DNA of 64,000 bases from Candidatus Oxydemutatoraceae bacterium. Its GTDB lineage: Bacteria; Pseudomonadota; Gammaproteobacteria; Poriferisulfidales; Oxydemutatoraceae. Both the position numbers and the translations under genes were made by a program. The stretch lies in the NCBI GenBank assembly GCA_965220085.1, contig CBDCOZ010000003.1, positions 1,963,667-2,027,666 on the forward strand, given 5' to 3'. Shown here piece after piece: positions 894 to 58,468 of the stretch. Each line of letters opens with the position of its first letter. Position 1 is the stretch's first letter. The notes below the pieces were generated by a model. The model made no database searches, was not told where the DNA came from, and saw nothing but the letters and a program-made list of their open reading frames with translations.

Positions 894-1408
894 TGCCCCG
901 ACTCCCGCGCCGGGCGAATGATTGCCTGTTGCGCATCGTGCTTCCGGTTTGCGCTGCCCCGACTCCCGCGCCGGGCGAATGATCGCCTGTTGCGCATCGT
1001 GCTTCCGGTTTGCGTTGCCCCGACTCCCGCGCCGGGCGAATGATCGCCTGTTGCGCATCGTGCTTCCGGTTTGCGTTGCGCCGCCTCCCGCGCCGGGCGA
1101 ATGATTGCCTGTTGCGCATCGTGCTTCCGGTTTGCGCTGCCCCGACTCCCGCGCCGGGCGAATGATTGCCTGTTGCGCATCGTGCTTCCGGTTTGCGTTG
1201 CCCCGACTCCCGCGCCGGGCGAATGATCGCCTGTTGCGCATCGTGCTTCCGGTTTGCGTTGCCCCGACTCCCGCGCCGGACGAATGATCGCCTGTTGCGC
1301 ATCGTGCTTCCGGTTTGCGCTGCGCCGACTCCCGCGCCGGGCGAATGATCGCCTGTTGCGCATCGTGCTTCCGGTTTGCGCTGCCCCGACTCCCGCGCCG
1401 GGCGAATA
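894..1408. repeat. 61-bp direct tandem repeat, about 8.4 copies (unit ctgccccgactcccgcgccgggcgaatgattgcctgttgcgcatcgtgcttccggtttgcg)
   Basis: Near-perfect copies start at 894, 955, 1016, ... 1382. There are no spacers. The array sits inside the conserved 3' flank of the coiled-coil gene family, and the single-copy version lies at about 54470–54530. Confidence 0.95.
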
Positions 1409-6015: not shown

Positions 6016-8316
6016 TTGAAAAAGAAAGTCATCTCCAAAGCAACCGCCAAACGGTTACAAAAACCGCAGACACGACCGCCGGGCTCCGGGTTGCTCAAAC
6101 GCCTGCGCACCGCCATCGGCGCCATGCTGGTTGTCATCATCGCTTACCTGTTATTGGTATTGCTCGGCTACCACCCCGACGACCCGTCGTGGGCAAACAA
6201 TGTTCCTGCCGACCAAACCCGCAATCCCGGCGGCGTCATCGGCGCATGGATTGCATACACCTTGTATTTTTTCCTCGGCGGCCCGGCGCTTGTTTTGTTC
6301 CCGCTCGCCATCGGCCTGAGCGCGTGGCACTACTTTAAGCAGGAAGAGAGCGCCCCGTCCTTTCTCAACGAGCACCTGATCAACTGGCTGACATTTGTGC
6401 TGACGATCATCGCGTGTTGCGGGCTGGCATCGCTGCATTTTGTCGGCCACGAACTGCCATTGACGGCGGGCGGGCGGGTCGGCGAGGTGGCGGCGCGCAA
6501 TTTTGTCAGCGTATTCGGAATGGTCGGCTCCACGGTGCTATTGACCGGCCTTGCGGTCACCGGCTTCACCCTGATGACCGGCATTTCGTGGCTCAAAGTC
6601 ATGGATGCCATCGGCGCTTCGATATTCCGCCTGCTGGATTGGGGCAAAGAGCTGCGCGAACGCCGCGCCACGCAACTCGCCGCGGAAGACCGAGAGAAGA
6701 GAATCGTGCAAAGGAAGAAAAAGTTGTCTATTGATACGCCGCCGCGGATTGAACCGCAGGTCAAATCGGTCGGGCCGAGCAAACGCCAGCGGCGCGAGCG
6801 GCAGATCGGATTGCCCCAAGTGAAATCGTCCGATGAGTTGCCGGCGCTGAGTTTGCTGGATGCCTCGGCCGAAGAAGTCGCGGCGTATTCCGAAAAAGAG
6901 CTCAACCAAATGGCGAAGCAATTGGAGATCAAGTTGCAGGACTTCGGCATTGAAGCGGAGGTCACCGAAGCGCAGCCCGGCCCGATCATCACGCGCTTTG
7001 AATTGTTGCCGGCGCCCGGCACCAAAGCGTCCTCTATCAGCAATCTGGAGAAGGACCTGGCGCGCTCCATGTCGGTTCCGAGTCTGCGCGTCGTTGAAGT
7101 GATTCCGGGCAAATCGGTGGTCGGCATAGAAATTCCGAATCAGCGACCGTCCGTTGTGCGGCTGGGAGAAATTCTCGGTTCGCAAAAATACGACGAAGCC
7201 AAATCGCCTCTGACGCTCGCGCTCGGCAAAGGCATTACCGGCGAAGCGACGATGGTGAATCTGGAAAGCCTGCCCCATCTGCTGGCGGCGGGCACGACCG
7301 GGGCCGGCAAGTCGGTGGCGGTACATGTCATGCTGCTCAGTCTCTTGTTTAAGAATCTTCCCCGACAGGTGCGCCTGATTCTGATCGACCCCAAGATGCT
7401 GGAACTCAAAACCTACGAAAACATCCCCCACTTGCTGACGCCGGTGATTACCGATATGAACGAAGCAGCCGGCGTCCTGAACTGGGCGGTGGCCGAAATG
7501 GAACGGCGTTATCAATTGATGGCAAGCGTCGGCGCGCGCAATATCGGCGGGCTGAACCAGCGCATCGCCGAAGCGCAGAACCGCGGGCAGCCGCTGCGCG
7601 ACCCGTTGCTTGAGAATAGCGACGGCGAAGAGGGGGAAGCGAATGAGGCGCCGCTGCTGGAAGCGATGCCCTATATCGTCATCGTCATAGACGAGTTTGC
7701 GGACATGATGATGGTCGCCGGCAAAAAAGTCGAGGAACTGATTATCCGCCTGGCGCAAAAAGCCCGCGCCGCCGGCCTGCACCTGATTCTTGCGACCCAA
7801 CGGCCTTCCGTCGATATCATCACCGGTCTGGTCAAAGCAAACATTCCGGCGCGGATCGCTTTTCAGGTGTCGTCCAAAGTCGATTCGCGAACCATCCTGG
7901 ACCAAAACGGCGCCGAACAACTGCTCGGCAAAGGCGACATGTTATTCCTCGCCCCCGGCGGCGGCTTGCCGGAACGCATCCACGGCGCGTTTGTCAGCGA
8001 TCGGGAAGTCGCCAAGGTGACGGATTTTCTGCGCCGGACGGGAACGCCGCAATACGAAGACCTGCTCGCTGCGCCGACAGCCGGCGCGGGCGGCGCGGGC
8101 GGCGGACAAGGCGATGACCCGCTGTTTGACGAAGCCGTCGCCATCGTCACCGCATCCAACAAGGCCTCCATATCGCATCTGCAACGCCGCCTCAAGATCG
8201 GCTATAACCGCGCCGCCAGAATGATAGAGGACATGGAAGCCGCCGGCATTGTCAGCGCGGTGCAATCCAACGGCAGCCGCGAAGTGCTGGCGCCGCGCGA
8301 AGGTCGCGAATCATGA
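6016..8316 (+). CDS. ftsK: DNA translocase FtsK
   Basis: TTG start. Has N-terminal TM helices, a Pro/Gln-rich linker, Walker A GTTGAGKS and a C-terminal gamma winged-helix ([28 protein letters not shown]). Confidence 0.95.
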
Positions 8317-9125
8317 TGCGCCGCCTCAAGATCGGCTATAACCGCGCCGCCAGAATGATAGAGGACATGGAAGCCGCCGGCATTGTCAGCGCAGCGCAAT
8401 CCAACGGCAGCCGCGAAGCGCTGGCGCCGCGCGAAGGTCGCGAATCATGATGCGCCGCCTCAAGATCGGCTATAACCGCGCCGCCAAAATGACAGAGGAC
8501 ATGGAAGCCGCCGGCATTGTCAGCGCAGCGCAATCCAACGGCAGCCGCGAAGCGCTGGCGCCGCGCGAAGGTCGCGAATCATGATGCGCCGCCTCAAGAT
8601 CGGCTATAACCGCGCCGCCAAAATGACAGAGGACATGGAAGCCGCCGGCATTGTCAGCGCAGCGCAATCCAACGGCAGCCGCGAAGCGCTGGCGCCGCGC
8701 GAAGGTCGCGAATCATGATGCGCCGCCTCAAGATCGGCTATAACCGCGCCGCCAGAATGACAGAGGACATGGAAGCCGCCGGCATTGTCAGCGCAGCGCA
8801 ATCCAACGGCAGCCGCGAAGCGCTGGCGCCGCGCGAAGGTCGCGAATCATGATGCGCCGCCTCAAGATCGGCCATAACCGCGCCGCCAGAATGACAGAGG
8901 ACATGGAAGCCGCCGGCATTGTCAGCGCAGCGCAATCCAACGGCAGCCGCGAGGCGCTGGCGCCGCGCGAAGGTCGCGAATCATGATGCGCCGCCTCAAG
9001 ATCGGCTATAACCGCGCCGCCAGAATGACAGAGGACATGGAAGCCGCCGGCATTGTCAGCGCAGCGCAATCCAACGGCAACCGCGAAGCGCTGGCGCCGC
9101 GCGAAGGTCGCGAATCATGATGCGC
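8183..9125 (+). repeat. 134-bp tandem array of 7 copies: the ftsK 3' end plus the ATGA junction, with 6 extra copies before lolA
   Basis: ATGATGCGCCGCCTC recurs at 8313, 8447, 8581, 8715, 8849, 8983 and 9117 (period 134). The copies differ by a few point substitutions. Confidence 0.95.
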
Positions 9126-9731
9126 CGCCTCGGACTTTTGCTCTTGTGGCTGCCGTGTGTCGGCTCCGCCGGCGCACTCGACGACCTCTACCACTTTTTT
9201 CAGGCGACAACATTTGAGGCAGACTTTGCGCAGAAAGTCTATGACGATGAAGATCAATTGCTGGAGACTTCCCAAGGCTTTGTGCTGTTCCGCCGCCCGG
9301 GGCAATTCCGCTGGGAATACCGCGCGCCCGAAAGTTACATCATCACGACCGACGGCATCAATCTGCTCGTCTATGACCCGGCTTTGTCTCAGGCCTATGT
9401 TCGCCCGACGATGGAAGCGCTCGGCACCGCGCCTTTGCGCCTGCTGTTAGACCGCCGCCGGGTCTTTGATGATTTTGATTTGGAACCGGTTGCGCGCGCC
9501 GACAAACTGAAGTGGGTACGCTTGACTCCGAAAGTGGACGACACCGAATTCACGCATTTTGAAGTCGGCTTTGCCGGGCACGGGATCAGCCGCATGGCGT
9601 TGTTCGATCGCTTTGATCAACGCATAGACATACGCTTTGACAATGTGAAGATCAACCCGGCGATAGCGGCAAGCCGTTTCAAACTCCGGTTGCCGCCGGA
9701 CACCGATGTCATCGGCGACTACCTGCGCTGA
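9117..9731 (+). CDS. lolA: Outer-membrane lipoprotein carrier protein LolA
   Basis: Has a signal peptide [20 protein letters not shown] and LolA-like sequence throughout. Conserved ftsK–lolA synteny. Confidence 0.9.
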
Positions 9732-10455
9732 ACCGAACCGCTATGCGGCCGGCGAGCGGAACAGCTTGGAAACGGGATTGACGTTTTTCACTTCCATCTG
9801 ATCGACGCGCTTGCCGGCTTGCGTCAGGCCGTTAAACGACGGGCACACAAACAGGTTGCCATTCGCGGCAAGCCGTTTCAAACTCCGGTTGCCGCCGGAC
9901 ACCGATGTCATCGGCGACTACCTGCGCTGAACCGAACCGCTATGCGGCCGGCGAGCGGAACAGCTTGGAAACGGGATTGACGTTTTTCACTTCCATCTGA
10001 TCGACGCGCCTGCCGGCTTGCGCCAGGCCGTTAAACGACGGGCACACAAACAGGTTGCCATTCGCGGCAAGCCGGTTCAAACTCCGGTTGCCGCCGGACA
10101 CCGATGTCATCGGCGACTACCTGCGCTGAACCGAACCGCTATGCGGCCGGCGAGCGGAACAGCTTGGAAACGGGATTGACGTTTTTCACTTCAAACTGAT
10201 CGACGCGCCTGTCGGCTTGCGTCAGGCCGTTAAACGACGGGCACACAAACAGGTTGCCATTCGCGGCAAGCCGGTTCAAACTCCGGTTGCCGCCGGACAC
10301 CGATGTCATCGGCGACTACCTGCGCTGAACCGAACCGCTATGCGGCCGGCGAGCGGAACAGCTTGGAAACGGGATTGACGTTTTTCACTTCAAACTGATC
10401 GACGCGCCTGTCGGCTTGCGTCAGGCCGTTAAACGACGGGCACACAAACAGATTG
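9671..10455. repeat. ~180-bp tandem array of about 4.3 copies spanning the convergent 3' ends of lolA (+) and the nucleotidyltransferase gene (−)
   Basis: GCAAGCCGTTTCAAACTCCGG recurs at about 9671, 9871, 10051 and 10231. Each unit carries the lolA stop and the C-terminal codons of the minus-strand gene. Confidence 0.9.
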
Positions 10456-11054
10456 CCACTCACCGCGAGGCGCCGTTGTTCGCGGATTGAAAAGGCGGCC
10501 GCTTCCAGAAATGTCGCGACATCGCGGAAAAAATAGGTGCCGGCGGAAGCGTGTTCGGAAATCACGCGCTTTTCCGCCGTCGCGGTCACACGCCCGCGCG
10601 CGTCAATCGCAAGATAGCTGTAGCAGGCATCATCGGCGCGAAACCACGGAATCAAACCCGACGAATCGGCATCCGCCAACCAGACATCGATCTGCTCCGC
10701 GTCCGCATCGTAGATGATATCGGCGAGGTCTATGCACAGCGGCTCCTCCAAGCGCGCGCTGGCCGACACGCCGGCGACGGCGGAAAGCAGCGCCCCGCGC
10801 GTCGGGCTATTCAAATATGCCTTCTGCGCGCCGACAAAACAGCGGTCAAGAAAGCGGGCGATGGCAGCCGATTCGGGCACATCGGCGCGCAATACAAAAA
10901 TCAGGTCGGCGCTCGCCACAACGCCATCGCGCCACCATGGCCGCGATGTCAAAACCCGTTCTATCAGCGGCGTTCCGTCGACTTCCGACAAAGGCTTGAC
11001 GCAACCGTTTGCGCGAACGATATCGGCGCCGGCCAGAGGAACCACGCAGATCAT
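10338..11054 (-). CDS. Sugar-phosphate nucleotidyltransferase family protein (MobA-like NTP_transferase fold)
   Basis: MICVVPLAG…KPL…GTPLIERVL. The start was chosen at the ATGA overlap with the upstream gene's stop. Confidence 0.55.
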   Translation of the reverse strand: MICVVPLAGADIVRANGCVKPLSEVDGTPLIERVLTSRPWWRDGVVASADLIFVLRADVPESAAIARFLDRCFVGAQKAYLNSPTRGALLSAVAGVSASARLEEPLCIDLADIIYDADAEQIDVWLADADSSGLIPWFRADDACYSYLAIDARGRVTATAEKRVISEHASAGTYFFRDVATFLEAAAFSIREQRRLAVSGNLFVCPSFNGLTQADRRVDQFEVKNVNPVSKLFRSPAA

Positions 11055-16182: not shown

Positions 16183-16457
16183 ACACCGTCGAAGTCATCT
16201 ACGCCCAAGCGGATGCGCAGAAAAAAGTCACCCTGCGGCTTGAAGACGGCGCCACCGCCGAGGATGCCATCAAACGCTCCGGGCTGCTGACGCTGTTTCC
16301 GCAGATAGACTTGCGCCGCAATCAAGTCGGCATTTACGGACGGCCGGTCGCGCTGAACAAAGTCGTCCGCGCCGGCGACCGGGTGGAAATTTACCGCAGT
16401 CTGCACAAATCGCCCGTCGAACAGCGCCGCGAACGGGCGCGGAGCAGCGGGGCGTAA
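16179..16457 (+). CDS. ratB: RnfH/RatB family ubiquitin-like protein
   Basis: About 92 aa with a VEVIYA…GDRVEIYR pattern. Overlaps the ratA stop. Confidence 0.7.
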   Translation: MNTVEVIYAQADAQKKVTLRLEDGATAEDAIKRSGLLTLFPQIDLRRNQVGIYGRPVALNKVVRAGDRVEIYRSLHKSPVEQRRERARSSGA

Positions 16458-16800
16458 GCGCCGGGCCGGCTCATAGCAACTCTCTGCCGGCATTCGCCAG
16501 CATCCGTCGCAACGCAATCAAAGGCAAACCGATCAAGGCGCTGGGGTCGGCGCTCTCAATGCAAGAACACAATGCGATGCCGAGACTCTCGGAACGAAAG
16601 CTGCCGGCGCACTCCCACGGCGCGTAAGCGCGGGGCCGGCTCATAGCAACTCTCTGCCGGCATTCGCCAGCATCCGGCGCAACTCGATCAAAGGCAAACC
16701 GATCAAAGCGCTGGGGTCGGCGCTCTCAATGCAAGAACACAATGCGATGCCGAGACTCTCGGAACGAAAGCTGCCGGCGCACTCCCACGGCGCGTCGCGA
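16447..16800. repeat. 177-bp direct duplication (2 copies) at the convergent ratB/maf junction
   Basis: 16447–16623 is nearly identical to 16624–16800. Each copy carries the maf C-terminal codons (…[12 protein letters not shown]). Confidence 0.9.
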
Positions 16801-23431: not shown

Positions 23432-24400
23432 ATGGTACATCAAACAGAAATCAACAACCTGAAAGAGCAACTCACGCAACGCGTTGTCGGTCAGGAGCAG
23501 TTAGTCGAGCGGTTACTGATCGCGCTGTTAGCCGACGGGCATCTGCTCGTTGAAGGTGCGCCGGGGCTTGCGAAGACAAGAGTCATCCGGGTGCTTGGCG
23601 AGAGCATAGACGGCGATTTCTGCCGTATCCAATTTACTCCCGATCTGTTGCCGGCCGACTTGACGGGAACCGAGATATACCGCCCTCAGGATGGTAGCTT
23701 CACATTTCAACAAGGCCCTTTATTCCACAACATCATCCTTGCCGACGAGATTAATCGCGCACCGGCAAAAGTCCAATCGGCATTACTTGAAGCGATGGCG
23801 GAACGGCAGATAACGGTCGGCGGGCAAACATTCTCACTGCCGCAACTGTTTCTGGTGATGGCAACACAAAACCCGATTGAACAGGAGGGAACTTACCCTC
23901 TGCCGGAAGCGCAACTTGACCGTTTCCTGATGCACGTGACGGTGGATTACCCGTCGGTTGATCAGGAGCAGTCCATCCTCCGACTGGTGCGCGGCGAACA
24001 GCTTGAAGAAATGCAGAACACCGAGCAGACCATCAGCAAAATCTCCCAGCAAAGTATCTTTGATACACGCAAAGAGATTGTGAACCTGCATATGTCGGAC
24101 GAAATTGAACGCTACATCGTTGAGTTGGTACTGGCAACCCGCAATATGGCGGCTTACGGTGACGACATCGCCCATTGGTTGCAATACGGCGCCAGTCCGC
24201 GCGCGACCATAGCACTTGACCGCTGCGCACGCGCACACGCATGGCTCAATGAACGGGACTATGTCACGCCGCATGATGTGCAGGCAATCACGCCGGATGT
24301 AATGCGCCACCGCTTGATTCTGAATTACGAAGCGGAAGCCGAAGGCATTACAGCCGACAAAACAATATCGGAATTGATCAGCCGCATCGCGGTTCCTTAA
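23432..24400 (+). CDS. MoxR-family AAA+ ATPase
   Basis: Walker A GAPGLAKT, Walker B ILADEINRA, sensor regions. Confidence 0.9.
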   Translation: MVHQTEINNLKEQLTQRVVGQEQLVERLLIALLADGHLLVEGAPGLAKTRVIRVLGESIDGDFCRIQFTPDLLPADLTGTEIYRPQDGSFTFQQGPLFHNIILADEINRAPAKVQSALLEAMAERQITVGGQTFSLPQLFLVMATQNPIEQEGTYPLPEAQLDRFLMHVTVDYPSVDQEQSILRLVRGEQLEEMQNTEQTISKISQQSIFDTRKEIVNLHMSDEIERYIVELVLATRNMAAYGDDIAHWLQYGASPRATIALDRCARAHAWLNERDYVTPHDVQAITPDVMRHRLILNYEAEAEGITADKTISELISRIAVP

Positions 24401-24402
24401 CC

Positions 24403-25335
24403 ATGTCTGCCGATGCGGCCACAATACCGCAATCAACCGATAATGAGGCTGTCGCAGTCTCATCCACCTCGCTGATTGCATTGGCACACGCCGCGCGCGG
24501 GCTCTCGCTAAACCCCAAACAGATCCGCGCGCGCACCAGCGATACGATGCAATCCCGCTTCAAGGGTCGCGGCATGGAATATGACGAGTCGCGCCCTTAT
24601 CAACCGGGTGATGATGTGCGCCATCTGGATTGGCGCGTGACAGCGAGAAGCAATGCGACCTATACGAAAACATTTCAGGAAGAACGCGAACGACCGGTGT
24701 TCTTGTGGGTGGATAACCGCGGGCCGATGTTCTTTGCAACACGCGGCAAATTCAAATCGGTTGTTGCGGCGGAAATAGCGGCGCTGCTGGGTTGGAGCGC
24801 CACACACCGCGGCGATCGCGTCGGCGGCGCGGTATTTTTCGGTGAAGAACACCACGAGGTAAAGCCCATGCGCGGGCGACGCGGCATCCTGCGCTTGCTC
24901 CATTACCTGTCGCAACCGCCCCTTGACGGGATCAGTGACACAGCACTCGGCATACCGCTGAACAGAATGTCGCGCATCGCCCGCCCCGGCAGTCTGGTTA
25001 TCCTGATCAGCGACTTTCGCCAGTGCGATGAGCGGGCACAGACTAATCTGCGGCGCCTTGCGGCGCACAGCGAGTTGGTTATGCTTCAGGTGTATGACAC
25101 GCTCGAACAAGAACTGCCGCCGCCGGGGGATTATCGGGTCAGCGACGGGCGCAACGAGGTGCGGTTTGCTTCGCGCGATAGCGCCTTGCGCAAAACCTAT
25201 CGCGATGCGTTTGCGCAGCGCACGCAACTGACGATGAGTCTGGCAAAGAAACTGCGTTCTGCGTATCTTCGCTGTCGCACAAGCGATAATCCTCTGACCG
25301 TGTTGAAAGGAACGTTTGGAGCCCGCAGCCGATGA
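24403..25335 (+). CDS. DUF58 domain protein
   Basis: Partner of MoxR in Bat operons, with a VWA-like fold signature. Confidence 0.8.
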   Translation: MSADAATIPQSTDNEAVAVSSTSLIALAHAARGLSLNPKQIRARTSDTMQSRFKGRGMEYDESRPYQPGDDVRHLDWRVTARSNATYTKTFQEERERPVFLWVDNRGPMFFATRGKFKSVVAAEIAALLGWSATHRGDRVGGAVFFGEEHHEVKPMRGRRGILRLLHYLSQPPLDGISDTALGIPLNRMSRIARPGSLVILISDFRQCDERAQTNLRRLAAHSELVMLQVYDTLEQELPPPGDYRVSDGRNEVRFASRDSALRKTYRDAFAQRTQLTMSLAKKLRSAYLRCRTSDNPLTVLKGTFGARSR

Positions 25336-25791
25336 ACCCGGAAGCGATCGGCGAACTCCTTGCGCAACTGACGATGAGTCTGGCAAAGAAACTGCGTTCT
25401 GCTTATCTTCGGTGTCGCACAAGCGATAATCCTCTGACCGTGTTGAAAGGAACGTTTGGAGCCCGCAGCCGATGAACCCGGAAGCGATCGGCGAACTCCT
25501 TGCGCAACTGACGATGAGTCTGGCAAAGAAACTGCGTTCTGCTTATCTTCGGTGTCGCACAAGCGATAATCCTCTGACCGTGTTGAAAGGAACGTTTGGA
25601 GCCCGCAGCCGATGAACCCGGAAGCGATCGGCGAACTCCTTGCGCAACTGACGATGAGTCTGGCAAAGAAACTGCGTCCTGCTTATCTTCGGTGTCGCAC
25701 AAGCGATAATCCTCTGACCGTGTTGAAAGGAACGTTTGGAGCCCGCAGCCGATGAACCCGGAAGCGATTGGCGAACTCCTTGCGCAACTGC
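25221..25791 (+). repeat. 140-bp tandem array of 4 copies: the DUF58 3' end plus the DUF4381 5' end
   Basis: GCCCGCAGCCGATGAACCCG recurs at 25321, 25461, 25601 and 25741. Confidence 0.95.
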
Positions 25792-26267
25792 GCGATATTC
25801 GCTTGCCCGAACCTCCCGGTTGGTGGCCGCCGGCGCCCGGTTGGTGGATCCTGGCAGCGATACTGGCAGCGTCGATTGCGGGCGGTATCTGGCGGCGGCG
25901 GCAACACATCGCGCATATCAATTCGCCGCGCTATCTGGCGCTTGAGCAACTTGATATATTGCGCGCGCGCTATCGCGCGGACCATGATGCGCAGCGCTTG
26001 CTGGCAGACATCTCCGCTCTGATGCGGCGCGTCGCGCTGAGCATCGGGCCGCGACGGGAAGTCGCCTCGCTGACCGGCGAACAGTGGCTTGATTGGATTA
26101 ACAGACATACGAGCGGCGCGCCGCTTGATGAAAACATTGCGCGGACTCTGATCGATGCGCCGTATCGCCCGACGGCGCAAAGCGATGCCGAGGCGATACT
26201 GCGGGCGTGCGAAGAATGGGCCGAAGGGCTTGAGAGCAAGCGGGGGCAAAGCGATGCTGCACTTTGA
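25752..26267 (+). CDS. DUF4381 domain protein
   Basis: N-terminal LPEPPGWWPPAPGWW plus a TM helix. Confidence 0.7.
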   Translation: MNPEAIGELLAQLRDIRLPEPPGWWPPAPGWWILAAILAASIAGGIWRRRQHIAHINSPRYLALEQLDILRARYRADHDAQRLLADISALMRRVALSIGPRREVASLTGEQWLDWINRHTSGAPLDENIARTLIDAPYRPTAQSDAEAILRACEEWAEGLESKRGQSDAAL

Positions 26268-27243
26268 ATGGCTCTGGGTCTGGTTCCTGCTGCCGCTGCC
26301 GCTGTTGATACGCTGGCTGATGAAGCCGGCGCCGACGCATAGCCGCGCCGCTTTGCGTATTTCTTTCATCGACGATTTCTCATTCGGCGACACAGAACGC
26401 GGCGGCTTCGGCCCTGCGCACCGTTGGTTACTGATATCGGCGGGAGCGGCGTGGTTGCTTCTGGTCATCGCCGCCAGCCGTCCGCAGTGGGTCGATGAGA
26501 TTACCAAGATACAAGCGAGCGGTCGCGACTTGATGCTCGCAGTCGATATTTCCGGCAGCATGAAGACCGAAGATTTCGCATTGAACAATCGCCGCGCGAC
26601 GCGGCTGCAAGTCGCCCGTTCGGTGGCTGCCGATTTCATTAAGCAGCGCGAGGGAGACCGCATCGGCCTCATCGTTTTCGGCGCGGAACCGTACTTGCAG
26701 ATGCCGCTGAGTTTTGATTTGGAGACGGTGCGGGATATGCTCAACTCGACTTTTATCGGCCTCGCCGGCGAGAAGGCGACCGCGATAGGCGACTCTATCG
26801 GTCTGGCGATCAAACGCTTGCGCGCGTACGAGGAGAGCAACCGTGTGCTGATACTGCTGACCGACGGGATCAACAACGCCGGCAACATCAACCCGATGGA
26901 TGCCGCCGATGTCGCCGCGCAACAAGGCATGAAGATTTATACCATCGGCATCGGCTCGGTAGGGAGAAGCGTGTTCTCTCTGCAACCGGCGCCCGAACTG
27001 GACGAGGACACGCTGAAAAAGGTCGCACAAAAAACCGGCGGGCGGTATTTCCGCGCGACCAACACCAAAGAGCTCAGAGAAATCTACGCTATCTTGGACA
27101 AGTTGGAGGTGATAGAACGCGATCAAAAGACGGTCGCGCTCTATACCGAGTTGTACCCGTGGCCGTTGGCCCTGGCGGGTCTGATCGCGTTTCTGCTGTT
27201 GCTGGCCAATATATTGCAAAGGGGGCTGTCATGGAGTTCTTGA
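26254..27243 (+). CDS. batA: VWA-domain protein BatA
   Basis: Two N-terminal TM helices. MIDAS motif DISGSM…T…D. Confidence 0.85.
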   Translation: MLHFEWLWVWFLLPLPLLIRWLMKPAPTHSRAALRISFIDDFSFGDTERGGFGPAHRWLLISAGAAWLLLVIAASRPQWVDEITKIQASGRDLMLAVDISGSMKTEDFALNNRRATRLQVARSVAADFIKQREGDRIGLIVFGAEPYLQMPLSFDLETVRDMLNSTFIGLAGEKATAIGDSIGLAIKRLRAYEESNRVLILLTDGINNAGNINPMDAADVAAQQGMKIYTIGIGSVGRSVFSLQPAPELDEDTLKKVAQKTGGRYFRATNTKELREIYAILDKLEVIERDQKTVALYTELYPWPLALAGLIAFLLLLANILQRGLSWSS

Positions 27244-29030
27244 GCGATTTTCATTTTTTGCGGCCGTGGTGGTTTGTCGCCATCGTGCCGCTGGCTGTCG
27301 CGCTCTGGTTGCTCGCTAAGATGCAGTCGGGAGAGAAGAGTTGGGAGACGATCTGCGACCGCCACCTGCTGCCGCACATCCTGATCGGGCGCGATACGAC
27401 GAGCAGCAAAAAATTTATGCTCGCGCTTGCCGCCGCGATCGGCGCGGTATCCATTCTCGCCCTTGCCGGGCCCGCTGCGGAAAAACAACAGCAGCAGGTG
27501 TTTGAAAACGAATCCGCTCTGGTCGTCGTGTTTGACCTGTCGCGCTCGATGAATGCGGTGGACATACCGCCGAGCCGTCTGGTGCGCGCGCGGTATAAGA
27601 TCAGCGACCTGATCAATCGTTACCAAAGCGGCGGGCAGTTTGCGCTGGTGACGTATGCCGCCGATGCGTTTACTGTCATGCCGCTTACCGACGACACCGC
27701 GGCATTTGAAATGTACTTGTCGTCCCTGAATAGCGGTATGCTGCCGGAACAAGGCAGCCGCCCCGATCTGGCGCTGGAACATTCCGCCGCGCTGGTCGAG
27801 CAGGCCGGCTTGGAGCGGGGAGACATACTGCTGGTCAGCGATTATGTCGACAGCGACCGCAGTCACGCCATGGCCAAGGACCTGGCGCAGCGGGGATACC
27901 GCATTTCGGTACTCGGCGTCGGCAGCAAAGAAGGCGCGCCGATTCGGGTGAACGGCAACATCTTCACCCACAACGGCAAGACCGTCGTCGCGCATTTTGA
28001 TGCGGCGCCTTTGCGCGAACTTGCCAAGCTCGGCAACGGCATCTACAGGCAGTTAGACCCCACCGGCGAGAGCGATATCGCCGCGCTCAACGAGTTGTTT
28101 GAGTCCGCGCCGAAATTGCCGGCGGAAGACGGCTCATCGCAGGTGTTCGGCGAGGCCTGGAAAGAACAGGGGCCGTGGTTGGTGTTGCTGTTATTGCCGT
28201 TGGCGGCTCTCGGTTTCAGGCGCGGGCTCTTAGTCGCCGCGCTTGCTATCACGCTCCCTCTGCCACAACCGGCGACGGCCAACTGGTGGGATGATCTGTG
28301 GCAGCGCGGCGACCAGCAAGCGATGGAAGCATTTGAAAAGGGCGACACCGAGACCGCCGCCGAACTGTTTGATGACCCGAGGTGGCGGGCGGCGAGCAGT
28401 TTTCGCAGCGGCAATTATCGGCAGGCGCAACAGGCGCTTGAGAAACCGCAGAGCGCCGGCGACTGGTATAACCTTGGCAATGCGCAAGCGCACGGGGGTA
28501 ATTTTGAGGGGGCGATCAAATCGTACAAGCGCTCTATTGAGCTTGACCCTGCGATGGAAGATGCGCAACACAACATGGGCATCGTCAGACAGTTGTTGCA
28601 AGAGCAACAGGCGCAAGCCGGCGAAGGCGATGAGGAGGACGCCGAAGGAGAAGAAGCGGAAGGACAACAGGGCGAAGCCGAACAACAAGACGGTTCCGAG
28701 GCGGAACAGGCGGGGCAGGCGGACAGCTCCGGCGATGAAAACGATCCGGATGATGCTTCCGAGCAAGAAGCCGGCAAAGAGGAGCAAGAGCAGGCCGACT
28801 CCGGCGCGCAAGGAAACGAGGAGCAGGAACAGTCCGCCGCCGACGAGCAAGACGATGAGGAAGCGCAAACCGGCGCTAACGAGGGAGAGACGATGCCCGA
28901 GGACAAGCAGGCGATAGAACAGTGGTTGCGTCAGGTTGAGGACAATCCGTCGCGGATGTTGCAACGCAAGTTTCGTTATCAGCAGAGAAAGGAAAACAAA
29001 AATACCGAGGAGGGGGAAAACCCATGGTGA
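27231..29030 (+). CDS. batB: VWA plus TPR protein BatB, with a long acidic low-complexity tail
   Basis: DLSRSM MIDAS motif and TPR helices (DWYNLGNAQAHGGNFEGAIKSYKRSIELDP). Confidence 0.85.
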   Translation: MEFLSDFHFLRPWWFVAIVPLAVALWLLAKMQSGEKSWETICDRHLLPHILIGRDTTSSKKFMLALAAAIGAVSILALAGPAAEKQQQQVFENESALVVVFDLSRSMNAVDIPPSRLVRARYKISDLINRYQSGGQFALVTYAADAFTVMPLTDDTAAFEMYLSSLNSGMLPEQGSRPDLALEHSAALVEQAGLERGDILLVSDYVDSDRSHAMAKDLAQRGYRISVLGVGSKEGAPIRVNGNIFTHNGKTVVAHFDAAPLRELAKLGNGIYRQLDPTGESDIAALNELFESAPKLPAEDGSSQVFGEAWKEQGPWLVLLLLPLAALGFRRGLLVAALAITLPLPQPATANWWDDLWQRGDQQAMEAFEKGDTETAAELFDDPRWRAASSFRSGNYRQAQQALEKPQSAGDWYNLGNAQAHGGNFEGAIKSYKRSIELDPAMEDAQHNMGIVRQLLQEQQAQAGEGDEEDAEGEEAEGQQGEAEQQDGSEAEQAGQADSSGDENDPDDASEQEAGKEEQEQADSGAQGNEEQEQSAADEQDDEEAQTGANEGETMPEDKQAIEQWLRQVEDNPSRMLQRKFRYQQRKENKNTEEGENPW

Positions 29031-30694
29031 TGAGAGTTGCCCAAGCGGTCTTGATCGGCATATCGCTGCTCGCGGTCACGGCGATGGCGGCGGATGTGCG
29101 CACGGTCGTCAAACGCAACCAGATTGAGATCGGCGAATCGTTTCAGGTGGAATTCGTAAGCAACAAGAAAGACACGGGCGCGCCGGATTTTTCGCCGCTT
29201 AACAAAGACTTCCGGGTGTTGGGGAGGAATCAAAAATCCACGCAAAGCATCATCAACGGGGTCGTGAAAATAGAGAAGAAGTGGATCGTGGAGTTATCGC
29301 CCAAGCGCGCCGGGCGGCTGAAAATTCCGGCATTGAACTTTGGCAATGCGAAGAGCCGGGAAGCGTTTGTGCGGGTGAAAAAAGCAAAACCTGCGGCGCC
29401 CGGCAAGGCGGAGGACATCTTTATGGAGATGACAGCGCAACCCTTGTCGCCTTATGTGCAGGCGCAGGTTCTGGTCATTACGCGCCTGTATACGATCAAG
29501 AGCCTGCGCGGGTCGATCAGCGATATTGCGGCGGAAAGCGATGCCATCATAAAGAAGGTCGGCGATGCGAAGAACTACAGGAAGGCGCATCGCGGACGCA
29601 ACTACAACATACACGAAAACCGCTACTTCGTTTATCCGCAAAACAGCGGCGCTGTCAAGATCAAGCCGCCGCAACTGGACGCGCAGTACACCGAGCGGGG
29701 GCGGCGTTATACGGTGCGCAAATCGGCCGCGCCGGTGACCCTCAATGTGCGCCCGGCGCCCGCTTCTTTTACCGGCGTTGCGTGGCTGCCCGCCGAAAGG
29801 ATACGGCTGTCCGAAACGTGGTCGGAAGATTTGGCGTCCCTGCAGGCGGGCGCGCCGCTTGTGCGCACGATAGCCATCAAAGGGCGCGGCATTTCAAGCG
29901 CGCAGTTGCCGGAAATCAAACAGGATGAGGTCGATAATCTCCGGCTCTATCCCGAGCAGGCGACGCTCAAAGACAATACGGGGAATACGCTGGACTCGGA
30001 ACGCATCCAAAAGTTTGTGTTGATTCCGTCTCAGGCGGGGCAGTACAGGCTGCCGGAGATTCGCATCCCGTGGTGGAATACCAAAACCGATAAGACCGAA
30101 TATGCCACCTTGCCGGCGCGGACTCTGTCGGTTGAGGAAGCGGCGGCGGGGTTGATTATCACGCCCGAACCGGTTGTCGCATCGCAGCAAGCAGCGCCCG
30201 TCGGCGATAGCGACGACAGCAATCTGTGGGCGTGGGTCAGCGCTTTGATGTTGCTCGGGTGGAGCGCGACCGGCGCGCTGGTATGGAAACAGCGGGGCAT
30301 CGTCGCGGCTCATGCGGCTGCTGCGACCGATAACCGGCGCAAAGAGGAGAAGCAGGCGGCGAACTTGCGGCGCTGTCGCAGGCAGTTGGAAAAAGCATGC
30401 GCGAACGACGACCGCCTGGCAACCAGAAATACCATGTTGCGCTGGGCCAAACTGATGTGGCCCGACAGGGATACGAAGTCTCTCGGGCAGTTGGCGCTGT
30501 TGGCCGATGATGCCGCGCTGGTCGAAGAGATCAGGCGATTGGATGAGGCGCTTTATTCCGAGCACAGCGATTGGAGCGGCAAGGAGATGTGGACGGCGTT
30601 GCAAGCCTGCTCCGAAACCGCGAAGGAACGACCCGCCGGTCGGTTTGCCAGAAAAAAATCCGGCGGGCTGGCGGCGTTGCACAAACTGAAGTGA
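29024..30694 (+). CDS. batD: BatD family protein
   Basis: Signal peptide and C-terminal TM helix. Position in the operon. Confidence 0.75.
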   Translation: MVMRVAQAVLIGISLLAVTAMAADVRTVVKRNQIEIGESFQVEFVSNKKDTGAPDFSPLNKDFRVLGRNQKSTQSIINGVVKIEKKWIVELSPKRAGRLKIPALNFGNAKSREAFVRVKKAKPAAPGKAEDIFMEMTAQPLSPYVQAQVLVITRLYTIKSLRGSISDIAAESDAIIKKVGDAKNYRKAHRGRNYNIHENRYFVYPQNSGAVKIKPPQLDAQYTERGRRYTVRKSAAPVTLNVRPAPASFTGVAWLPAERIRLSETWSEDLASLQAGAPLVRTIAIKGRGISSAQLPEIKQDEVDNLRLYPEQATLKDNTGNTLDSERIQKFVLIPSQAGQYRLPEIRIPWWNTKTDKTEYATLPARTLSVEEAAAGLIITPEPVVASQQAAPVGDSDDSNLWAWVSALMLLGWSATGALVWKQRGIVAAHAAAATDNRRKEEKQAANLRRCRRQLEKACANDDRLATRNTMLRWAKLMWPDRDTKSLGQLALLADDAALVEEIRRLDEALYSEHSDWSGKEMWTALQACSETAKERPAGRFARKKSGGLAALHKLK

Positions 30695-31440
30695 ACCGCC
30701 TTATGCGAACCGCCGACCTGTTAATCCATGCGCACCGAGTCCTGCCGATTAATCCGGCAAACACGGTGTTGAATGCCCACAGCGTGGCGGTAAGCGCCGG
30801 CAGGATTGCCGCCGTGATGCCGAGCGCTGATGCGCGTCGCAACTGGCTGGCGGCGTTGCACAAACTGAAGCGAACCGCCTTATGCGAACCGCCGACCTGT
30901 TAATCCATGCGCACCGAGCCCTGCCGATCCGCCCGGCAAACACGGTGTTGAATGCCCACAGCGTAGCGGTGCGCGATGGCCGGATTGCCGCCGTGATGCC
31001 GAGCGCCGATGCGCGTCGCAACTGGCTGGCGGCGTTGCGCAAACTGAAGCGAACCGCCTTATGCGAACCGCCGACCTGTTAATCCATGCGCACCGAGTCC
31101 TGCCGATCCGCCCGGCAAACACGGTGTTGAATGCCCACAGCGTAGCGGTGCGCGATGGCCGGATTGCTGCTGTGATGCCGAGCGCTGACGCGCGCCGCAA
31201 CTGGCTGGCGGCGTTGCGCAAACTGAAGCGAACCGCCTTATGCAAACCGCCGACCTGTTAATCCATGCGCACCGAGTCCTGCCGATCCGCCCGGCAAACA
31301 CGGTGTTGAATGCCCACAGCGTAGCGGTGCGCGATGGCCGGATTGCCGCTGTGATGCCGCCCGCTGACGCGCGCCGCAACTGGCGGCGTTGCACAAACTG
31401 AAGCGAACCGCCTTATGCGAACCGCCGACCTGTTAATCCA
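30666..31440 (+). repeat. 179-bp tandem array of about 5 copies: the batD 3' end plus the first ~150 nt of mtaD
   Basis: ATGCGAACCGCCGACCTG recurs at 30703, 30882, 31061, 31240 and 31415. The last spacing is 175. Confidence 0.95.
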
Positions 31441-32730
31441 TGCGCACCGAGTCCTGCCGATTAATCCGGCAAACACGGTGTTGAATGCCCACAGCGTAGC
31501 GGTGCGCGATGGCCGGATTGCCGCCGTGATGCCGAGCGCCGACGCGCGTCGCAACTGGCGGGCGCAACAGTCTGTTGACTTGCCGAGCCATGTCCTGATG
31601 CCGGGGTTGGTAAACGCGCATACGCATACGCCGATGAGTTTGTTGCGCGGCTTCGCCGATGATATGCCGCTGATGTCGTGGTTGCGCGATTACATCTGGC
31701 CGGCGGAACGGCGCTGGGTCAGCCGCGAATTCGTGCGCGCCGGATCGCACCTCGCTTATGCCGAACTTTTGCGCGGCGGGGTGACGTGCTTTAACGATAT
31801 GTACTTCTTTCCGCAGGTCAGCGCGCAACTTGCCGACGAGACGGGCATCCGCGCCTGTATCGGCATGCTGGTGATGGATCTCGCAACCGCCTACGCCGAC
31901 AATCCGGAGCAGTATCTGGAGAAAGGGCTTGAATTGCGCGCACAATTTCATGATCACCCGACCGTGCATCCGGTGTTGGCGCCGCACGCGCCTTATACGG
32001 TGTCCGATGAATACCTGCGGCGCATCGCCGCGCTCGGCGACGAACTCGACTTGCAAATTTGCATGCACCTGCACGAGACTGCGCAAGAGATAGAAGACTC
32101 CCTCAAGCAATATGGCAGTCGTCCGTTGCGGCGGGTGGCCGCGCTCGGCTTATTGTCTTCGCGGTTGCTGGCGGTGCACGCGGCGCACTTGCAAGACGAT
32201 GAAATCCGCGCGCTGGCCGAAGCCGGTGCGGCGGTGATTCACTGCCCCGAATCCAACTTGAAACTGGCCAGCGGTTTTTGTCCGGCGCAAAAGTTAGCGG
32301 ACGCGGGGGGTGTGTCGCACTCGGCACCGACGGCGCGGCCAGCAACAATGATCTTGACATGATCGGAGAAATGCAAACCGCGAGTTTGCTGGCCAAGGGC
32401 GTCGGCAAAGATGCGACCGCGATGCCCGCGCATCGCGCATTGGAAATGGCGACACTGGCCGGCGCGCGCGCGCTCAAACTGGACGACCGTATCGGTTCGG
32501 TTGAAGTCGGCAAAAGCGCGGACTTGATAGCCATAGACCTGAGCGGGGCGGAAGCGAGACCGCTGTATGATATCGCATCGCATCTGGTCTACGCGACCGA
32601 CAGGCGGCAAGTCAGCGATGTCTGGGTGGCCGGGCGGCGGCTGTTGCAGAACCGCACATTGACGACGATTGACATCGACGCGCTCGGCCCGCGAGCGCTT
32701 GAAGGGGAGCGGAAAATCAGCGGCGGATGA
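31415..32730 (+). CDS. mtaD: 5-methylthioadenosine/S-adenosylhomocysteine deaminase (amidohydrolase), with an apparent −1/+2 frameshift at a G6 run (32305–32310)
   Basis: HxH metal motif (VNAHTHTPMSLLRG) in frame 1. …ALGTDGAASNNDLDM…SADLIAIDLS in a second frame starting at 32278. One extra G restores ADAGGCVALGTDG. Confidence 0.8.
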
Positions 32731-33292
32731 CTACGCGCAATCTTCTTCGCGGAACCATGCATTGACGACGATTGACATCGACGCGCTCGGCCCGCGAGCG
32801 CTTGAAGGGGAGCGGAAAATCAGCGGCGGATGACTATCTGCAGTCTTCGTCTTCGCGGAACCATGCATTGACGACAATTGACATCGACGCGCTCGGCCCG
32901 CGAGCGCTTGAAGGGGAGCGGAAAATCAGCGGCGGATGACTACGCGCAGTCTTCTTCGCGGAACCATGCATTGACGACGATTGACATCGACGCGCTCGGC
33001 CCGCGAGCGCGCGCTCAAACTGGATGACCGTATCGGTTCGGTTGAAGTCGGCAAAAGCGCGGACTTGATAGCCACAGACCTGAGCGGAGCGGAAGCGAGA
33101 CCGCTGTACGATATCGCATCGCATCTGGTCTACGCGACCGACAGGCGGCAAGTCAGCGATGTCTGGGTGGCCGGGCGGCGGCTGTTGCGGAACCGCACAT
33201 TGACGACGATTGACATGGACGCGCTCGGCCCGCGAGCGCTTGAAGGGGAGCGGAAAATCAGCGGCGGATGACTACCTGCAGTCTTCGTCTTC
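32437..33292. repeat. Nested duplications of the mtaD 3' end and the convergent PLD-gene 3' end (~92-bp units and a ~280-bp segment repeated)
   Basis: TTGACGACGATTGACATCGACGCGCTCGGCCCGCGAGCGCTTGAAGGGGAGCGGAAAATCAGCGGCGGATGACTAC occurs 4 times. 32440–32730 is about the same as 33010–33290. Confidence 0.85.
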
Positions 33293-36030: not shown

Positions 36031-36091
36031 AAAATATTTGGCAAGTAATTCTTATGTTGATATTTTAAGGCGCTTTGTGCGCAGGTGTTTG

Positions 36092-37006: not shown

Positions 37007-37166
37007 AATTATTTCGCAGTGTGTCAGCCACTATAGAACAAAGACCCAAAGGCTTCCTTGCCGTTGCCTGTGTTGACCCAAGACACCATGTGCATAGCAA
37101 GTTGCGCCTCGTACCTCTCAATTACACTTTCGGTCATGTTCTCTTAAATAAAGCTTTCAATTCTTA

Positions 37167-37934: not shown

Positions 37935-37937
37935 ATT

Positions 37938-39761: not shown

Positions 39762-39763
39762 AA

Positions 39764-41665: not shown

Positions 41666-41845
41666 GCTTCATAAGGCGTGAGATATGCACAAGTTTCAAT
41701 CGTTTCGTTTTTTTAATCAAAACCCTATCGATTTTACTCGTGAAAAGTTTGAACTTTAATCAAAAAAACGCCGCTGAACCTTCCTATAAGAAGAATTGAG
41801 CGACGCAACGAGTGGCACCATGCCGGAGATGTTGACGTTGTAGTA

Positions 41846-41940
<95 letters not shown>

Positions 41941-41972
41941 TATCAATCAGTATTTTATTCCTTGGAATCTGT

Positions 41973-42161
41973 CTAGTCTGTGGTGACTTTTCCAAGTTGC
42001 TCTTTCTTGATCTTTTCATAAATCTCTTCACGATAGACAGAAACACCCCGCGGGGCATTTATACCCAGCCGTGCCTGACCGCTACTGATGTTCAGAACGG
42101 TTACGGTGATATCGTCACCGATCATAAAAGATTCTCCCACTCTTCTAGTTAGAATTAACAC
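41973..42161 (-). CDS. csrA: Carbon storage regulator CsrA/RsmA
   Basis: [23 protein letters not shown]…GINAPR. GTG start after GGAGGG. Confidence 0.93.
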
Positions 42162-58292: not shown

Positions 58293-58382
58293 AGTATTTC
58301 TCCTAATGGTTTGTATTTCGTAAATGCGGTTGCGCAATGAGCGCTTCCGCCCCAAAGACATCCGCAAGCAATTCAAGAAGCC

Positions 58383-58461: not shown

Positions 58462-58468
58462 TTGTTTG

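What the first reader, a model, noticed from the sequence alone, without database searches (positions are those of the whole stretch)
25221..25791. DUF58/DUF4381 junction: a 140-bp unit ×4 creates three chimeric 47-aa mini-ORFs
Each unit joins the DUF4381 start (MNPEAIGELLAQL) in frame to the DUF58 C-terminus (TMSLAKKLRSAYLRCRTSDNPLTVLKGTFGARSR*). The ATGA start/stop overlap is preserved at each junction. The join lies at an 8-bp microhomology (CGCAACTG) present in both genes.
Basis: seen in the sequence. Interest (0 to 1): 0.55.

Follow-up and report, generated by a model that had tools for sequence, protein, structure and literature searches.

The report
Tandemly amplified DUF58/DUF4381 gene junction
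A 140-base piece spanning the end of one gene and the start of the next has been copied head-to-tail four times, leaving both genes intact and adding three junk mini-genes; it is one of at least seven such recent duplications in this stretch of genome, all sitting on gene boundaries.

Summary
Window 25223-25790 holds four head-to-tail copies of a 140-bp unit plus an 8-bp terminal repeat (CGCAACTG); only four columns vary. The unit is the last 34 codons of a DUF58 gene plus the first 13 codons of the DUF4381 gene that overlaps it by ATGA, inside a MoxR/Bat operon. DUF58 (first copy) and DUF4381 (last copy) stay intact. Three in-frame 47-aa chimeric ORFs lie between them, each with the ATGA overlap.

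Best reading: a recent microhomology-mediated tandem duplication, then amplified. Relatives at about 90% and 77% nucleotide identity have a single-copy junction. The chimeric peptide occurs in no other public protein cluster. The unit has no terminator, promoter, RNA family or unusual fold.

It is not isolated. Six other long-unit arrays (61-199 bp) lie within 33 kb and none is internal to a gene (random placement P about 2e-5). FtsK/LolA and BatD/amidohydrolase show the same chimeric architecture. In 1.37 Mb of related loci only three such arrays occur. Selection appears to keep only duplications that leave both neighbouring genes whole. In the sister FtsK/LolA array, internal copies accumulate changes in a roughly neutral pattern.

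The individual array is ordinary in kind; the density in this genome is unusual. Copy number could not be checked against reads.

The parts
23432..24400 (+). MoxR-type AAA+ ATPase, first gene of the operon
   Evidence: Pfam AAA_3 E 8e-64, AAA_lid_2
24403..25335 (+). DUF58 gene, intact. Its last 113 bp (34 codons, the stop and part of one further codon) are the first part of repeat copy 1.
   Evidence: Pfam DUF58 E 1e-43. The C-terminus aligns to the end with 18 homologues.
25223..25790 (+). Tandem array: 4 x 140 bp plus the 8-bp terminal microhomology
   Evidence: TRF; register and variant columns; the unit occurs nowhere else in the window
25223..25230 (+). Left arm of the microhomology CGCAACTG, inside DUF58
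25783..25790 (+). Right arm of the microhomology CGCAACTG, inside DUF4381
25332..25475 (+). Chimeric mini-ORF 1 (47 aa): DUF4381 residues 1-13 joined to DUF58 residues 277-310; ATGA overlaps at both ends
   Evidence: no Pfam hit; called as a gene in the source record
25472..25615 (+). Chimeric mini-ORF 2 (47 aa), identical to ORF 1
25612..25755 (+). Chimeric mini-ORF 3 (47 aa), with S->P from T->C at 25678
25752..26267 (+). DUF4381 gene, intact. It starts in copy 4 and carries one synonymous change (25769 C->T).
   Evidence: Pfam DUF4381 E 1.5e-39
26155..30694 (+). Downstream operon genes: VWA (BatA-like), VWA+TPR (BatB-like) and BatD-like
   Evidence: Pfam VWA, TPR, BatD
8185..9131 (+). Sister array, 134 bp x 7.07: FtsK 3' end + LolA start, ATGA overlap, 9-bp microhomology CGCCGCCTC, six 45-aa chimeric ORFs
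30666..31564 (+). Sister array, 179 bp x 5: BatD 3' end + amidohydrolase start, with chimeric ORFs (three of 66 aa, one of 53 aa); copies about 93% alike
9666..10458 (.). Sister array, 199 bp x 4: LolA 3' end + intergenic + 3' end of the convergent (-) gene
16448..16795 (.). Sister array, 170 bp x 2: RnfH stop + intergenic + Maf 3' end
894..1407 (.). Sister array, 61 bp x 8.4, between two convergent genes
32657..33010 (.). Sister array, 103 bp x 3.4, at the amidohydrolase 3' end, nested in a duplication spaced 541 bp apart

Best explanation
This is a recent, lineage-specific structural mutation, not an evolved device. INFERRED: an illegitimate replication or recombination event between two 8-bp direct repeats (CGCAACTG), 140 bp apart, duplicated the segment spanning the DUF58 stop and the DUF4381 start. 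One repeat lay in the DUF58 C-terminal region and the other just inside DUF4381. Once two 140-bp copies existed, slippage or unequal recombination between them raised the number to four. SHOWN: the segment contains the gene boundary, so the first copy completes DUF58 and the last copy starts DUF4381, and neither gene is damaged. The period is 2 mod 3 and the genes overlap by ATGA. Each internal copy is therefore an in-frame 47-aa ORF that starts with the DUF4381 initiation codon and ends at the DUF58 stop, again overlapping the next ATG. INFERRED: ribosomes can pass along the chain by termination-reinitiation, or initiate afresh at each copied GGAG...ATG. DUF4381 is then still translated, perhaps less efficiently, and three unselected chimeric peptides are made as by-products. 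The array persists because it is nearly neutral. SHOWN: six further arrays of unrelated sequence in the same 33 kb also lie on gene boundaries or between genes. INFERRED: this genome generates or retains such duplications at an unusually high rate, and selection removes those that fall inside genes.
For: Array anatomy and microhomology. Intact flanking genes and operon identity. Single-copy ATGA junction in relatives: L003/L004 (about 90-93% nt identity) and L001 (77%). FtsK/LolA is single copy in L085-L088. The chimeric peptide is found only in the source genome among 5.8 billion protein clusters. The novel join is absent from JGI metagenome contigs. The unit has no terminator or promoter match, no unusual fold (z -0.15) and no Rfam family. 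Units of the seven arrays are unrelated to one another, and the A5 unit occurs only here. None of the seven arrays is internal to a gene, whereas 73-85% of random placements would be; joint P = 2e-5. Of the 8-bp microhomology pairs spaced 50-250 bp apart, 81% lie inside genes. Three arrays end in about 8-9 bp of microhomology and a fourth in 4 bp. In the FtsK array, copy 1 keeps the outgroup residues, while the internal copies carry 6 derived nonsynonymous and 2 synonymous changes. In this array the only nonsynonymous change is in an internal copy, and the changes in the parts used by the real genes are synonymous. Related loci totalling 1.37 Mb, including nine long-read chromosomes, hold only 3 arrays with period >=50. 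Microhomology-mediated tandem duplication, favoured by long GC-rich microhomology and depleted in essential genes, is documented in bioRxiv 10.1101/2020.03.03.972455.
Against: Only one assembly carries the array and no reads could be examined, so the exact copy number is unverified. The relatives are short-read contigs, in which tandem repeats can collapse to one copy. The 8-bp arms are not both present in the nearest relative: L003 has CACAATTG and GCAGTTG. The pre-duplication state in the direct ancestor is therefore inferred. All three co-directional junction arrays are in frame (1/27 by chance), which hints at more than plain neutrality. The cause of the high array density is unknown.
Confidence: 0.8

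Rival explanations
1. Assembly or sequencing artefact: the junction is single copy in the organism, and the array or its copy number was created by the assembler or by library amplification.
For: There is a single source assembly and no reads are available. Relatives show one copy. A nearby amidohydrolase gene is split across two frames, which could be a consensus error.
Against: An artefact has no reason to respect gene boundaries, yet all seven arrays avoid gene interiors (P 2e-5). Copies differ by substitutions, not indels. Some of these are shared between internal copies, and some can be polarised with outgroups. The BatD array has diverged to 93%. Breakpoints sit at microhomologies. Nine long-read MAG chromosomes of related bacteria show no such arrays in their 21-kb loci.
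Confidence: 0.05
2. Adaptive tuning device: the number of ATGA-coupled mini-ORFs between DUF58 and DUF4381 sets the translation ratio of the two proteins and varies as a contingency locus. Alternatively, the chimeric peptides themselves act, for example by competing for the partner of the conserved DUF58 C-terminus.
For: All three co-directional junction arrays in the window have period 2 mod 3, so their chimeric ORFs read into the upstream gene's frame; the two ATGA-coupled junctions keep the overlap in every unit. The DUF58/DUF4381 -4 overlap is common: 34 of 77 related loci. The duplicated DUF58 tail contains invariant residues. Short ORFs coupled at -4 nt can deliver ribosomes to a downstream gene (review PMC12548453).
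Against: The array is absent from the nearest relatives. Internal copies of the sister FtsK array evolve with about 3:1 nonsynonymous to synonymous changes at conserved residues. This array has an S->P change in ORF 3. In-frame status in 3 of 3 arrays has only a 1/27 chance probability. Arrays at convergent gene ends cannot work this way, so a common neutral origin is the simpler account.
Confidence: 0.1
3. Insertion of a mobile intercistronic repeat element of the MIRU type.
For: The position at an operon junction, with ORFs overlapping stop and start by 4 nt, resembles MIRUs.
Against: The unit is made entirely of the flanking genes' own sequence and is colinear with the single-copy junction of relatives. 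It occurs nowhere else in the window, and the other arrays have unrelated units.
Confidence: 0.01

Closest known systems
Microhomology-mediated tandem duplications (MTDs) and their expansion into higher-copy repeats (described in S. pombe, S. cerevisiae and E. coli; bioRxiv 10.1101/2020.03.03.972455)
   Same: A local segment of tens to a few hundred bp is duplicated head-to-tail between two short identical sequences (here 8 bp, GC-rich). Duplications that disrupt genes are depleted by selection. Further expansion to more than 2 copies is known.
   Different: Here the duplication spans a stop/start overlap of two operon genes, so no gene is disrupted and coupled chimeric ORFs arise. The density is far above what that paper reports for E. 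coli (which it found 20-fold lower than S. pombe): seven fixed arrays, up to 8 copies, in 33 kb.
Mycobacterial interspersed repetitive units (MIRU-VNTR), as summarised in PMC12548453
   Same: Tandemly repeated 40-100-bp-scale units at intercistronic junctions, whose internal ORF overlaps the neighbouring gene's start by 4 nt, so translational coupling through the insert is kept.
   Different: MIRUs are an interspersed, apparently mobile family with the same unit at many loci. This unit is a private copy of the local gene ends. It is not interspersed, and it is orthologous to single-copy sequence in relatives.
Pervasive tandem repeats of Borg elements (PLoS Biol 2023, PMC9879509)
   Same: Genome-specific, recently formed, near-perfect tandem repeats of independent origin. 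They are flanked by partial repeats, are absent from related genomes, and about half are intergenic or begin within gene ends.
   Different: Borg repeats are A-rich, and many lie inside ORFs with lengths divisible by three, making amino-acid repeats. Here the units are 61-199 bp, 54-67% G+C, none is divisible by three and none is internal to an ORF.
Long-unit VNTR loci of endosymbionts (e.g. Wolbachia VNTR-141 and VNTR-105; PMC3287509)
   Same: Tandem repeats of about 100-140 bp in a host-associated bacterium with a small genome.
   Different: The paper was found by search only and not read here, so gene-junction architecture was not compared. Here the unit is coding sequence of two adjacent genes.

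Membership tests
Microhomology-mediated tandem duplication, amplified (VNTR-like) | Head-to-tail direct copies of a local segment | tested here: met
   4 x 140 bp, 99% identity, no indels
Microhomology-mediated tandem duplication, amplified (VNTR-like) | The same short sequence starts the unit and directly follows the last copy | tested here: met
   CGCAACTG at 25223-25230 and 25783-25790; flanking bases differ. The sister arrays end in 9, 8 and 4 bp.
Microhomology-mediated tandem duplication, amplified (VNTR-like) | Single-copy ancestral state carrying both microhomology arms | tested here: inconclusive
   Relatives are single copy, but L003 has CACAATTG and GCAGTTG at the two sites. L001 has a 7-bp match (CGCAAAA) at the equivalent positions. 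The direct ancestor is not available.
Microhomology-mediated tandem duplication, amplified (VNTR-like) | Copy number varies between cells or strains | not testable with these tools
   No reads and no second assembly of the same species. The chimeric ORF was found only in the source genome.
MIRU-type intercistronic repeat element | Sits at an operon junction with an internal ORF overlapping the flanking stop and start codons by 4 nt | tested here: met
   ATGA at each of the four junctions
MIRU-type intercistronic repeat element | The same unit is interspersed at many loci of the genome | tested here: not met
   The unit matches only 25223-25782 in the window, and the units of the other six arrays are unrelated. 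The rest of the genome was not readable.
MIRU-type intercistronic repeat element | The unit is foreign to the flanking genes | tested here: not met
   The unit is the DUF58 tail plus the DUF4381 head, colinear with the single-copy junction in L001, L003 and L004.
Borg-like pervasive tandem repeats | Many independent, near-perfect, genome-specific arrays flanked by partial repeats | tested here: met
   7 arrays in 33 kb against 3 in 1.37 Mb of related loci; partial or microhomology flanks
Borg-like pervasive tandem repeats | A-rich units; ORF-internal repeats with lengths divisible by three | tested here: not met
   Units are 61-199 bp and 54-67% G+C. No period is divisible by three and none is internal to an ORF.
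MoxR/Bat-type operon (gene context) | MoxR AAA+ ATPase, DUF58, DUF4381, VWA (BatA), VWA+TPR (BatB) and BatD in one direction | tested here: met
   Pfam hits above the gathering scores for all six; same gene order in L001-L003

The most novel reading that the evidence does not exclude
This bacterium has a genome-wide regime of very frequent microhomology-mediated duplication and amplification. It is probably associated with a marine invertebrate and has a 2.05-Mb chromosome. If the density seen here is typical, the genome would hold hundreds of arrays. In operons, only arrays that keep the upstream frame and the ATGA stop/start overlap survive. Copy number at such junctions would then act as a heritable, reversible dial on translational coupling between neighbouring genes.
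Probability: 0.12. Interest if true: 0.7.

Novelty: new variant of a known kind. Interest (0 to 1): 0.4.

Why it matters
Taken alone, the array is a tidy natural example of how a tandem duplication can be harmless. It straddles a gene boundary, so both genes survive, and the ATGA overlap is copied with it, so translational coupling can run through the insert. The more interesting point is the context. A small bacterial genome appears to carry long-unit arrays at roughly a hundred times the density of its relatives, and their positions directly display the filter of selection: boundaries tolerated, interiors not. A whole-genome census could give a natural data set on three things. The first is the spectrum of microhomology-mediated duplication in bacteria. 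The second is whether reading-frame and coupling constraints shape which junction duplications persist. The third is how gene callers inflate annotations with chimeric mini-ORFs, since these 47-aa ORFs are already deposited as proteins.

Tried and rejected
(1) Locating the source genome or same-species genomes in genome contigs with the DUF58 protein found nothing. The source chromosome is known only as a 2,046,636-bp NCBI/ENA contig, and its DNA could not be fetched.

(2) An exact search for the novel join in JGI metagenome contigs gave 0 hits. A search for the 47-aa chimeric peptide in 5.8 billion clusters found only the source genome.

(3) Structured RNA, terminator or promoter in the unit: none.

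(4) A mobile or interspersed element: rejected, because the unit is private and made of local gene sequence.

(5) Clustering of arrays near a replication terminus: no dif-like site was found, and the GC-skew change at about 34 kb coincides with a switch in gene orientation. The idea was dropped as untestable in 64 kb.

(6) Selection on the mini-ORFs from this array alone: only four substitutions, which is too few. The FtsK array was used instead.

(7) Literature searches for junction-spanning tandem arrays with translational coupling found no direct precedent beyond MIRU, MTD and Borg repeats. One search failed on syntax.

Full report
OBSERVATION

Tandem Repeats Finder reports one array at 25223-25790: period 140, 4.1 copies, 99% matches, no indels, score 1108. 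Written in register, the copies are 25223-25362, 25363-25502, 25503-25642 and 25643-25782. They are followed by 8 bases (25783-25790, CGCAACTG) that repeat the first 8 bases of the unit. The bases outside these limits do not match at a 140-bp offset.

Only four columns vary. Copy 1 has G at 25263 and C at 25272. Copy 4 has C at 25678 and T at 25769. Copies 2 and 3 are identical.

The ORF list shows DUF58 (24403-25335), three 47-aa ORFs (25332-25475, 25472-25615, 25612-25755) and DUF4381 (25752-26267). Each overlaps the next by ATGA.

GENES AND CONTEXT

Pfam assigns the following:
- 23432-24400: MoxR-type AAA_3 ATPase
- 24403-25335: DUF58
- 25752-26267: DUF4381
- 26155-27243: VWA
- 27159-29030: VWA+TPR
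- 29024-30694: BatD

This is a MoxR/Bat-type operon. The duplicated DUF58 tail is a conserved part of the protein, with C291, T293, P297, L301 and F305 invariant in 19 sequences. The 47-aa ORFs match no Pfam family.

A stop/start overlap of -4 between DUF58 and the next gene is the commonest arrangement in relatives: 34 of 77 loci, with nearly all the rest within about 10 nt. That spacing is the one associated with translational coupling (review PMC12548453).

The unit contains no terminator-like or promoter-like site. Its RNA and DNA folds are no more stable than shuffles, with z -0.15 and +0.75. No Rfam family matches it. A possible weak Shine-Dalgarno motif (GGAG, 10 nt before each ATG) is copied in each unit; this is read directly from the sequence.

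RELATIVES

The DUF58 protein is 100% identical to one on a 2,046,636-bp NCBI/ENA contig, which is the source chromosome. That DNA could not be fetched.

The nearest other sequences are two Logan contigs, L003 and L004, with protein 96% identical and DNA about 85-93% identical. The next nearest is a TARA scaffold, L001, at 77% DNA identity. All three have DUF58 and DUF4381 overlapping by ATGA in a single copy, and TRF finds no long-period array in them.

Aligning a one-copy reconstruction of the window with these contigs shows that the unit is colinear with their single-copy junction.

The arms of the microhomology are CACAATTG and GCAGTTG in L003. L001 has a 7-bp match, CGCAAAA, at the equivalent places. 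The exact 8-bp pair is therefore specific to the window's lineage.

The chimeric peptide is found in no protein cluster other than the source genome's own. The novel join is absent from JGI metagenome contigs.

Caveat: the relatives are short-read assemblies, and such assemblies can collapse tandem repeats.

The nearest named genomes are Candidatus Oxydemutator and Oxydemutatoraceae at 53-55% protein identity. Oxydemutator is a sponge symbiont genus (PMC11685487). A marine, host-associated gammaproteobacterium is therefore likely, but this was not shown.

NOT AN ISOLATED EVENT

The window holds six more long-unit, near-identical arrays:

| Array | Coordinates | Unit x copies | What it spans |
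|---|---|---|---|
| A1 | 894-1407 | 61 x 8.4 | between two convergent genes |
| A2 | 8185-9131 | 134 x 7.07 | FtsK 3' end + LolA start |
| A3 | 9666-10458 | 199 x 4 | LolA 3' end + convergent gene 3' end |
| A4 | 16448-16795 | 170 x 2 | RnfH stop + Maf 3' end |
| A5 (this finding) | 25223-25790 | 140 x 4.06 | DUF58 3' end + DUF4381 start |
| A6 | 30666-31564 | 179 x 5 | BatD 3' end + amidohydrolase start |
| A7 | 32657-33010 | 103 x 3.4 | amidohydrolase 3' end |

(Coordinates and periods. Gene assignments.)

The units are unrelated to one another, and the 140-bp unit occurs only in its own array.

The FtsK/LolA array is a twin of the finding. It has an ATGA overlap, a 9-bp microhomology (CGCCGCCTC) and six 45-aa ORFs reading MMRRL + the FtsK gamma-domain tail. 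The BatD/amidohydrolase array makes chimeric ORFs in the BatD frame, three of 66 aa and one of 53 aa.

Six of the seven arrays contain a stop codon of a real gene, and the seventh lies between convergent genes. I collapsed the 1-36 kb region to one copy per array and used a hand-checked gene list. In that sequence, 73-85% of random placements of each unit length fall wholly inside a gene. The joint probability that all seven avoid gene interiors is 2e-5. Opportunity does not explain this: 235 of 289 microhomology pairs of at least 8 bp, spaced 50-250 bp apart, lie inside genes.

In 84 related loci totalling 1.37 Mb, only three arrays with period >=50 and >=90% identity occur. Those loci include nine chromosomes from long-read MAG projects. 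FtsK/LolA and the LolA 3' end are single copy in L085-L088.

NEUTRALITY OF THE INTERNAL COPIES

In the FtsK array, copy 1 (the part used by the real FtsK) keeps the residues seen in two outgroups (I, V, V). The internal copies carry derived changes: V->A twice, I->T, R->K, Y->H and S->N. That is 6 nonsynonymous against 2 synonymous, roughly the neutral ratio, and the changes hit conserved gamma-domain positions.

The present array has four substitutions. They are consistent with relaxed constraint on the internal copies but too few to test alone.

| Position | Where it lies | Effect |
|---|---|---|
| 25263 | separates copy 1 (real DUF58 tail) from copies 2-4 | synonymous |
| 25272 | separates copy 1 (real DUF58 tail) from copies 2-4 | synonymous |
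| 25769 | real DUF4381 head | synonymous |
| 25678 | internal mini-ORF 3 | nonsynonymous (S->P) |

MECHANISM

Shown: the anatomy, the microhomology, the intact flanking genes, the in-frame coupled mini-ORFs, the absence from relatives and the bias towards gene boundaries.

Inferred:
- The first duplication arose by slippage or illegitimate recombination between the two 8-bp repeats. Microhomology-mediated tandem duplication is documented; it is favoured by long GC-rich microhomology and is depleted in essential genes (bioRxiv 10.1101/2020.03.03.972455).
- Later expansion to four copies came from slippage or unequal exchange between 140-bp copies.
- Copies 2-4 share two variants absent from copy 1. 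This fits expansion from an already mutated second copy.
- Ribosomes either reinitiate at each ATGA or start afresh at each copied start site. DUF4381 is then still made, possibly at a reduced level, together with three unselected peptides.

The in-frame join requires period = 2 mod 3. All three co-directional junction arrays meet this condition, which has a 1/27 chance probability. This hints that arrays which break coupling are selected against, but the sample is too small to say so.

RIVALS

An assembly artefact is unlikely for four reasons:
- artefacts would not track gene boundaries;
- the copies differ by substitutions that can be polarised with outgroups;
- one array has diverged to 93%;
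- long-read assemblies of related bacteria show no such arrays.

Even so, the copy number itself is unverified.

An adaptive role, either as a translational dial or through functional peptides, is not excluded. It is disfavoured by the absence of the array from relatives and by the neutral substitution pattern in the sister FtsK/LolA array.

A MIRU-like mobile element is rejected.

COMPARISON AND VERDICT

In kind, this is a microhomology-mediated tandem duplication amplified into a VNTR-like array. In its effect on the operon it resembles MIRUs, where a coupled ORF sits at a -4 junction, but it fails the two defining MIRU tests of being interspersed and of foreign origin. At the genome level it recalls the genome-specific pervasive repeats of Borg elements (PMC9879509), but with long, GC-rich, boundary-spanning units.

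I rate it a new variant of a known kind. The single array is of modest interest. The density and the clean boundary filter are worth a whole-genome follow-up.

Noticed in passing
window 8185-9131: A 134-bp x 7.07 array duplicates the FtsK 3' end plus the LolA start (ATGA overlap, 9-bp microhomology CGCCGCCTC). It gives six 45-aa ORFs that contain most of the FtsK gamma-domain tail. The internal copies carry derived nonsynonymous changes, while the real FtsK copy keeps the ancestral residues.
   Followed up: yes
window 30666-31564: A 179-bp x 5 array of the BatD 3' end plus the amidohydrolase start, with copies about 93% alike. Only copy 1 has the BatD stop TGA. Copies 2-5 read CGA, so three chimeric ORFs run on to 66 aa and overlap the next start; a fourth is 53 aa.
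   Followed up: partly
window 894-1407, 9666-10458, 16448-16795: Three further long-unit arrays (61 x 8.4, 199 x 4, 170 x 2) at convergent gene ends. The 199-bp unit contains the 3' ends of both LolA and the opposing gene, and the 170-bp unit contains the RnfH stop and the Maf 3' end.
   Followed up: partly
window 31415-33289: The amidohydrolase gene is split into two overlapping frames (31415-32362 and 32278-32730), which is either a frameshift or a consensus error. Its 3' end is duplicated at 541-bp spacing (32457-32748 versus 32998-33289), with the 103-bp array (32657-33010) nested inside.
   Followed up: no
window 36000-42000: A low-GC island (0.37-0.41 against about 0.58) next to tRNA-Ser (41848-41940). 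It encodes an AlwI-type restriction endonuclease, a RadC + D12 N6-adenine methyltransferase fusion and a DUF5655 protein, so it is probably an acquired restriction-modification island.
   Followed up: partly
window 3624, 5661, 57385, 58616, 60422, 61862, 62844 (about 70 nt each): An interspersed conserved sequence of about 70 nt (...CGCAACGGGCCTTCCAGGAAAAGGCGCAGGCGCA). Most copies adjoin (-) strand ORFs that share long similar stretches and have no Pfam match; one adjoins 3656-5356(-), which has a putative Ig (He_PIG) domain. It could be a shared gene end or a regulatory element.
   Followed up: no
window 34-804, 54647-55702, 56001-57101: Coiled-coil-like proteins built of in-frame 27/54/81/135-nt repeats. 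These are ordinary protein repeats, unlike the boundary-spanning arrays.
   Followed up: no
window 58382-58534: Two adjacent short repeats, one perfect and one near-perfect (22 nt x 3.6 at 100% and 14 nt x 4.9 at 98%), at and just upstream of the start of the (-) strand ORF 57417-58430.
   Followed up: no
window 21358-21448: ARAGORN calls a 91-nt tRNA-Gly(acc) inside the uvrC ORF. Rfam does not confirm it, so it is probably a false positive.
   Followed up: yes
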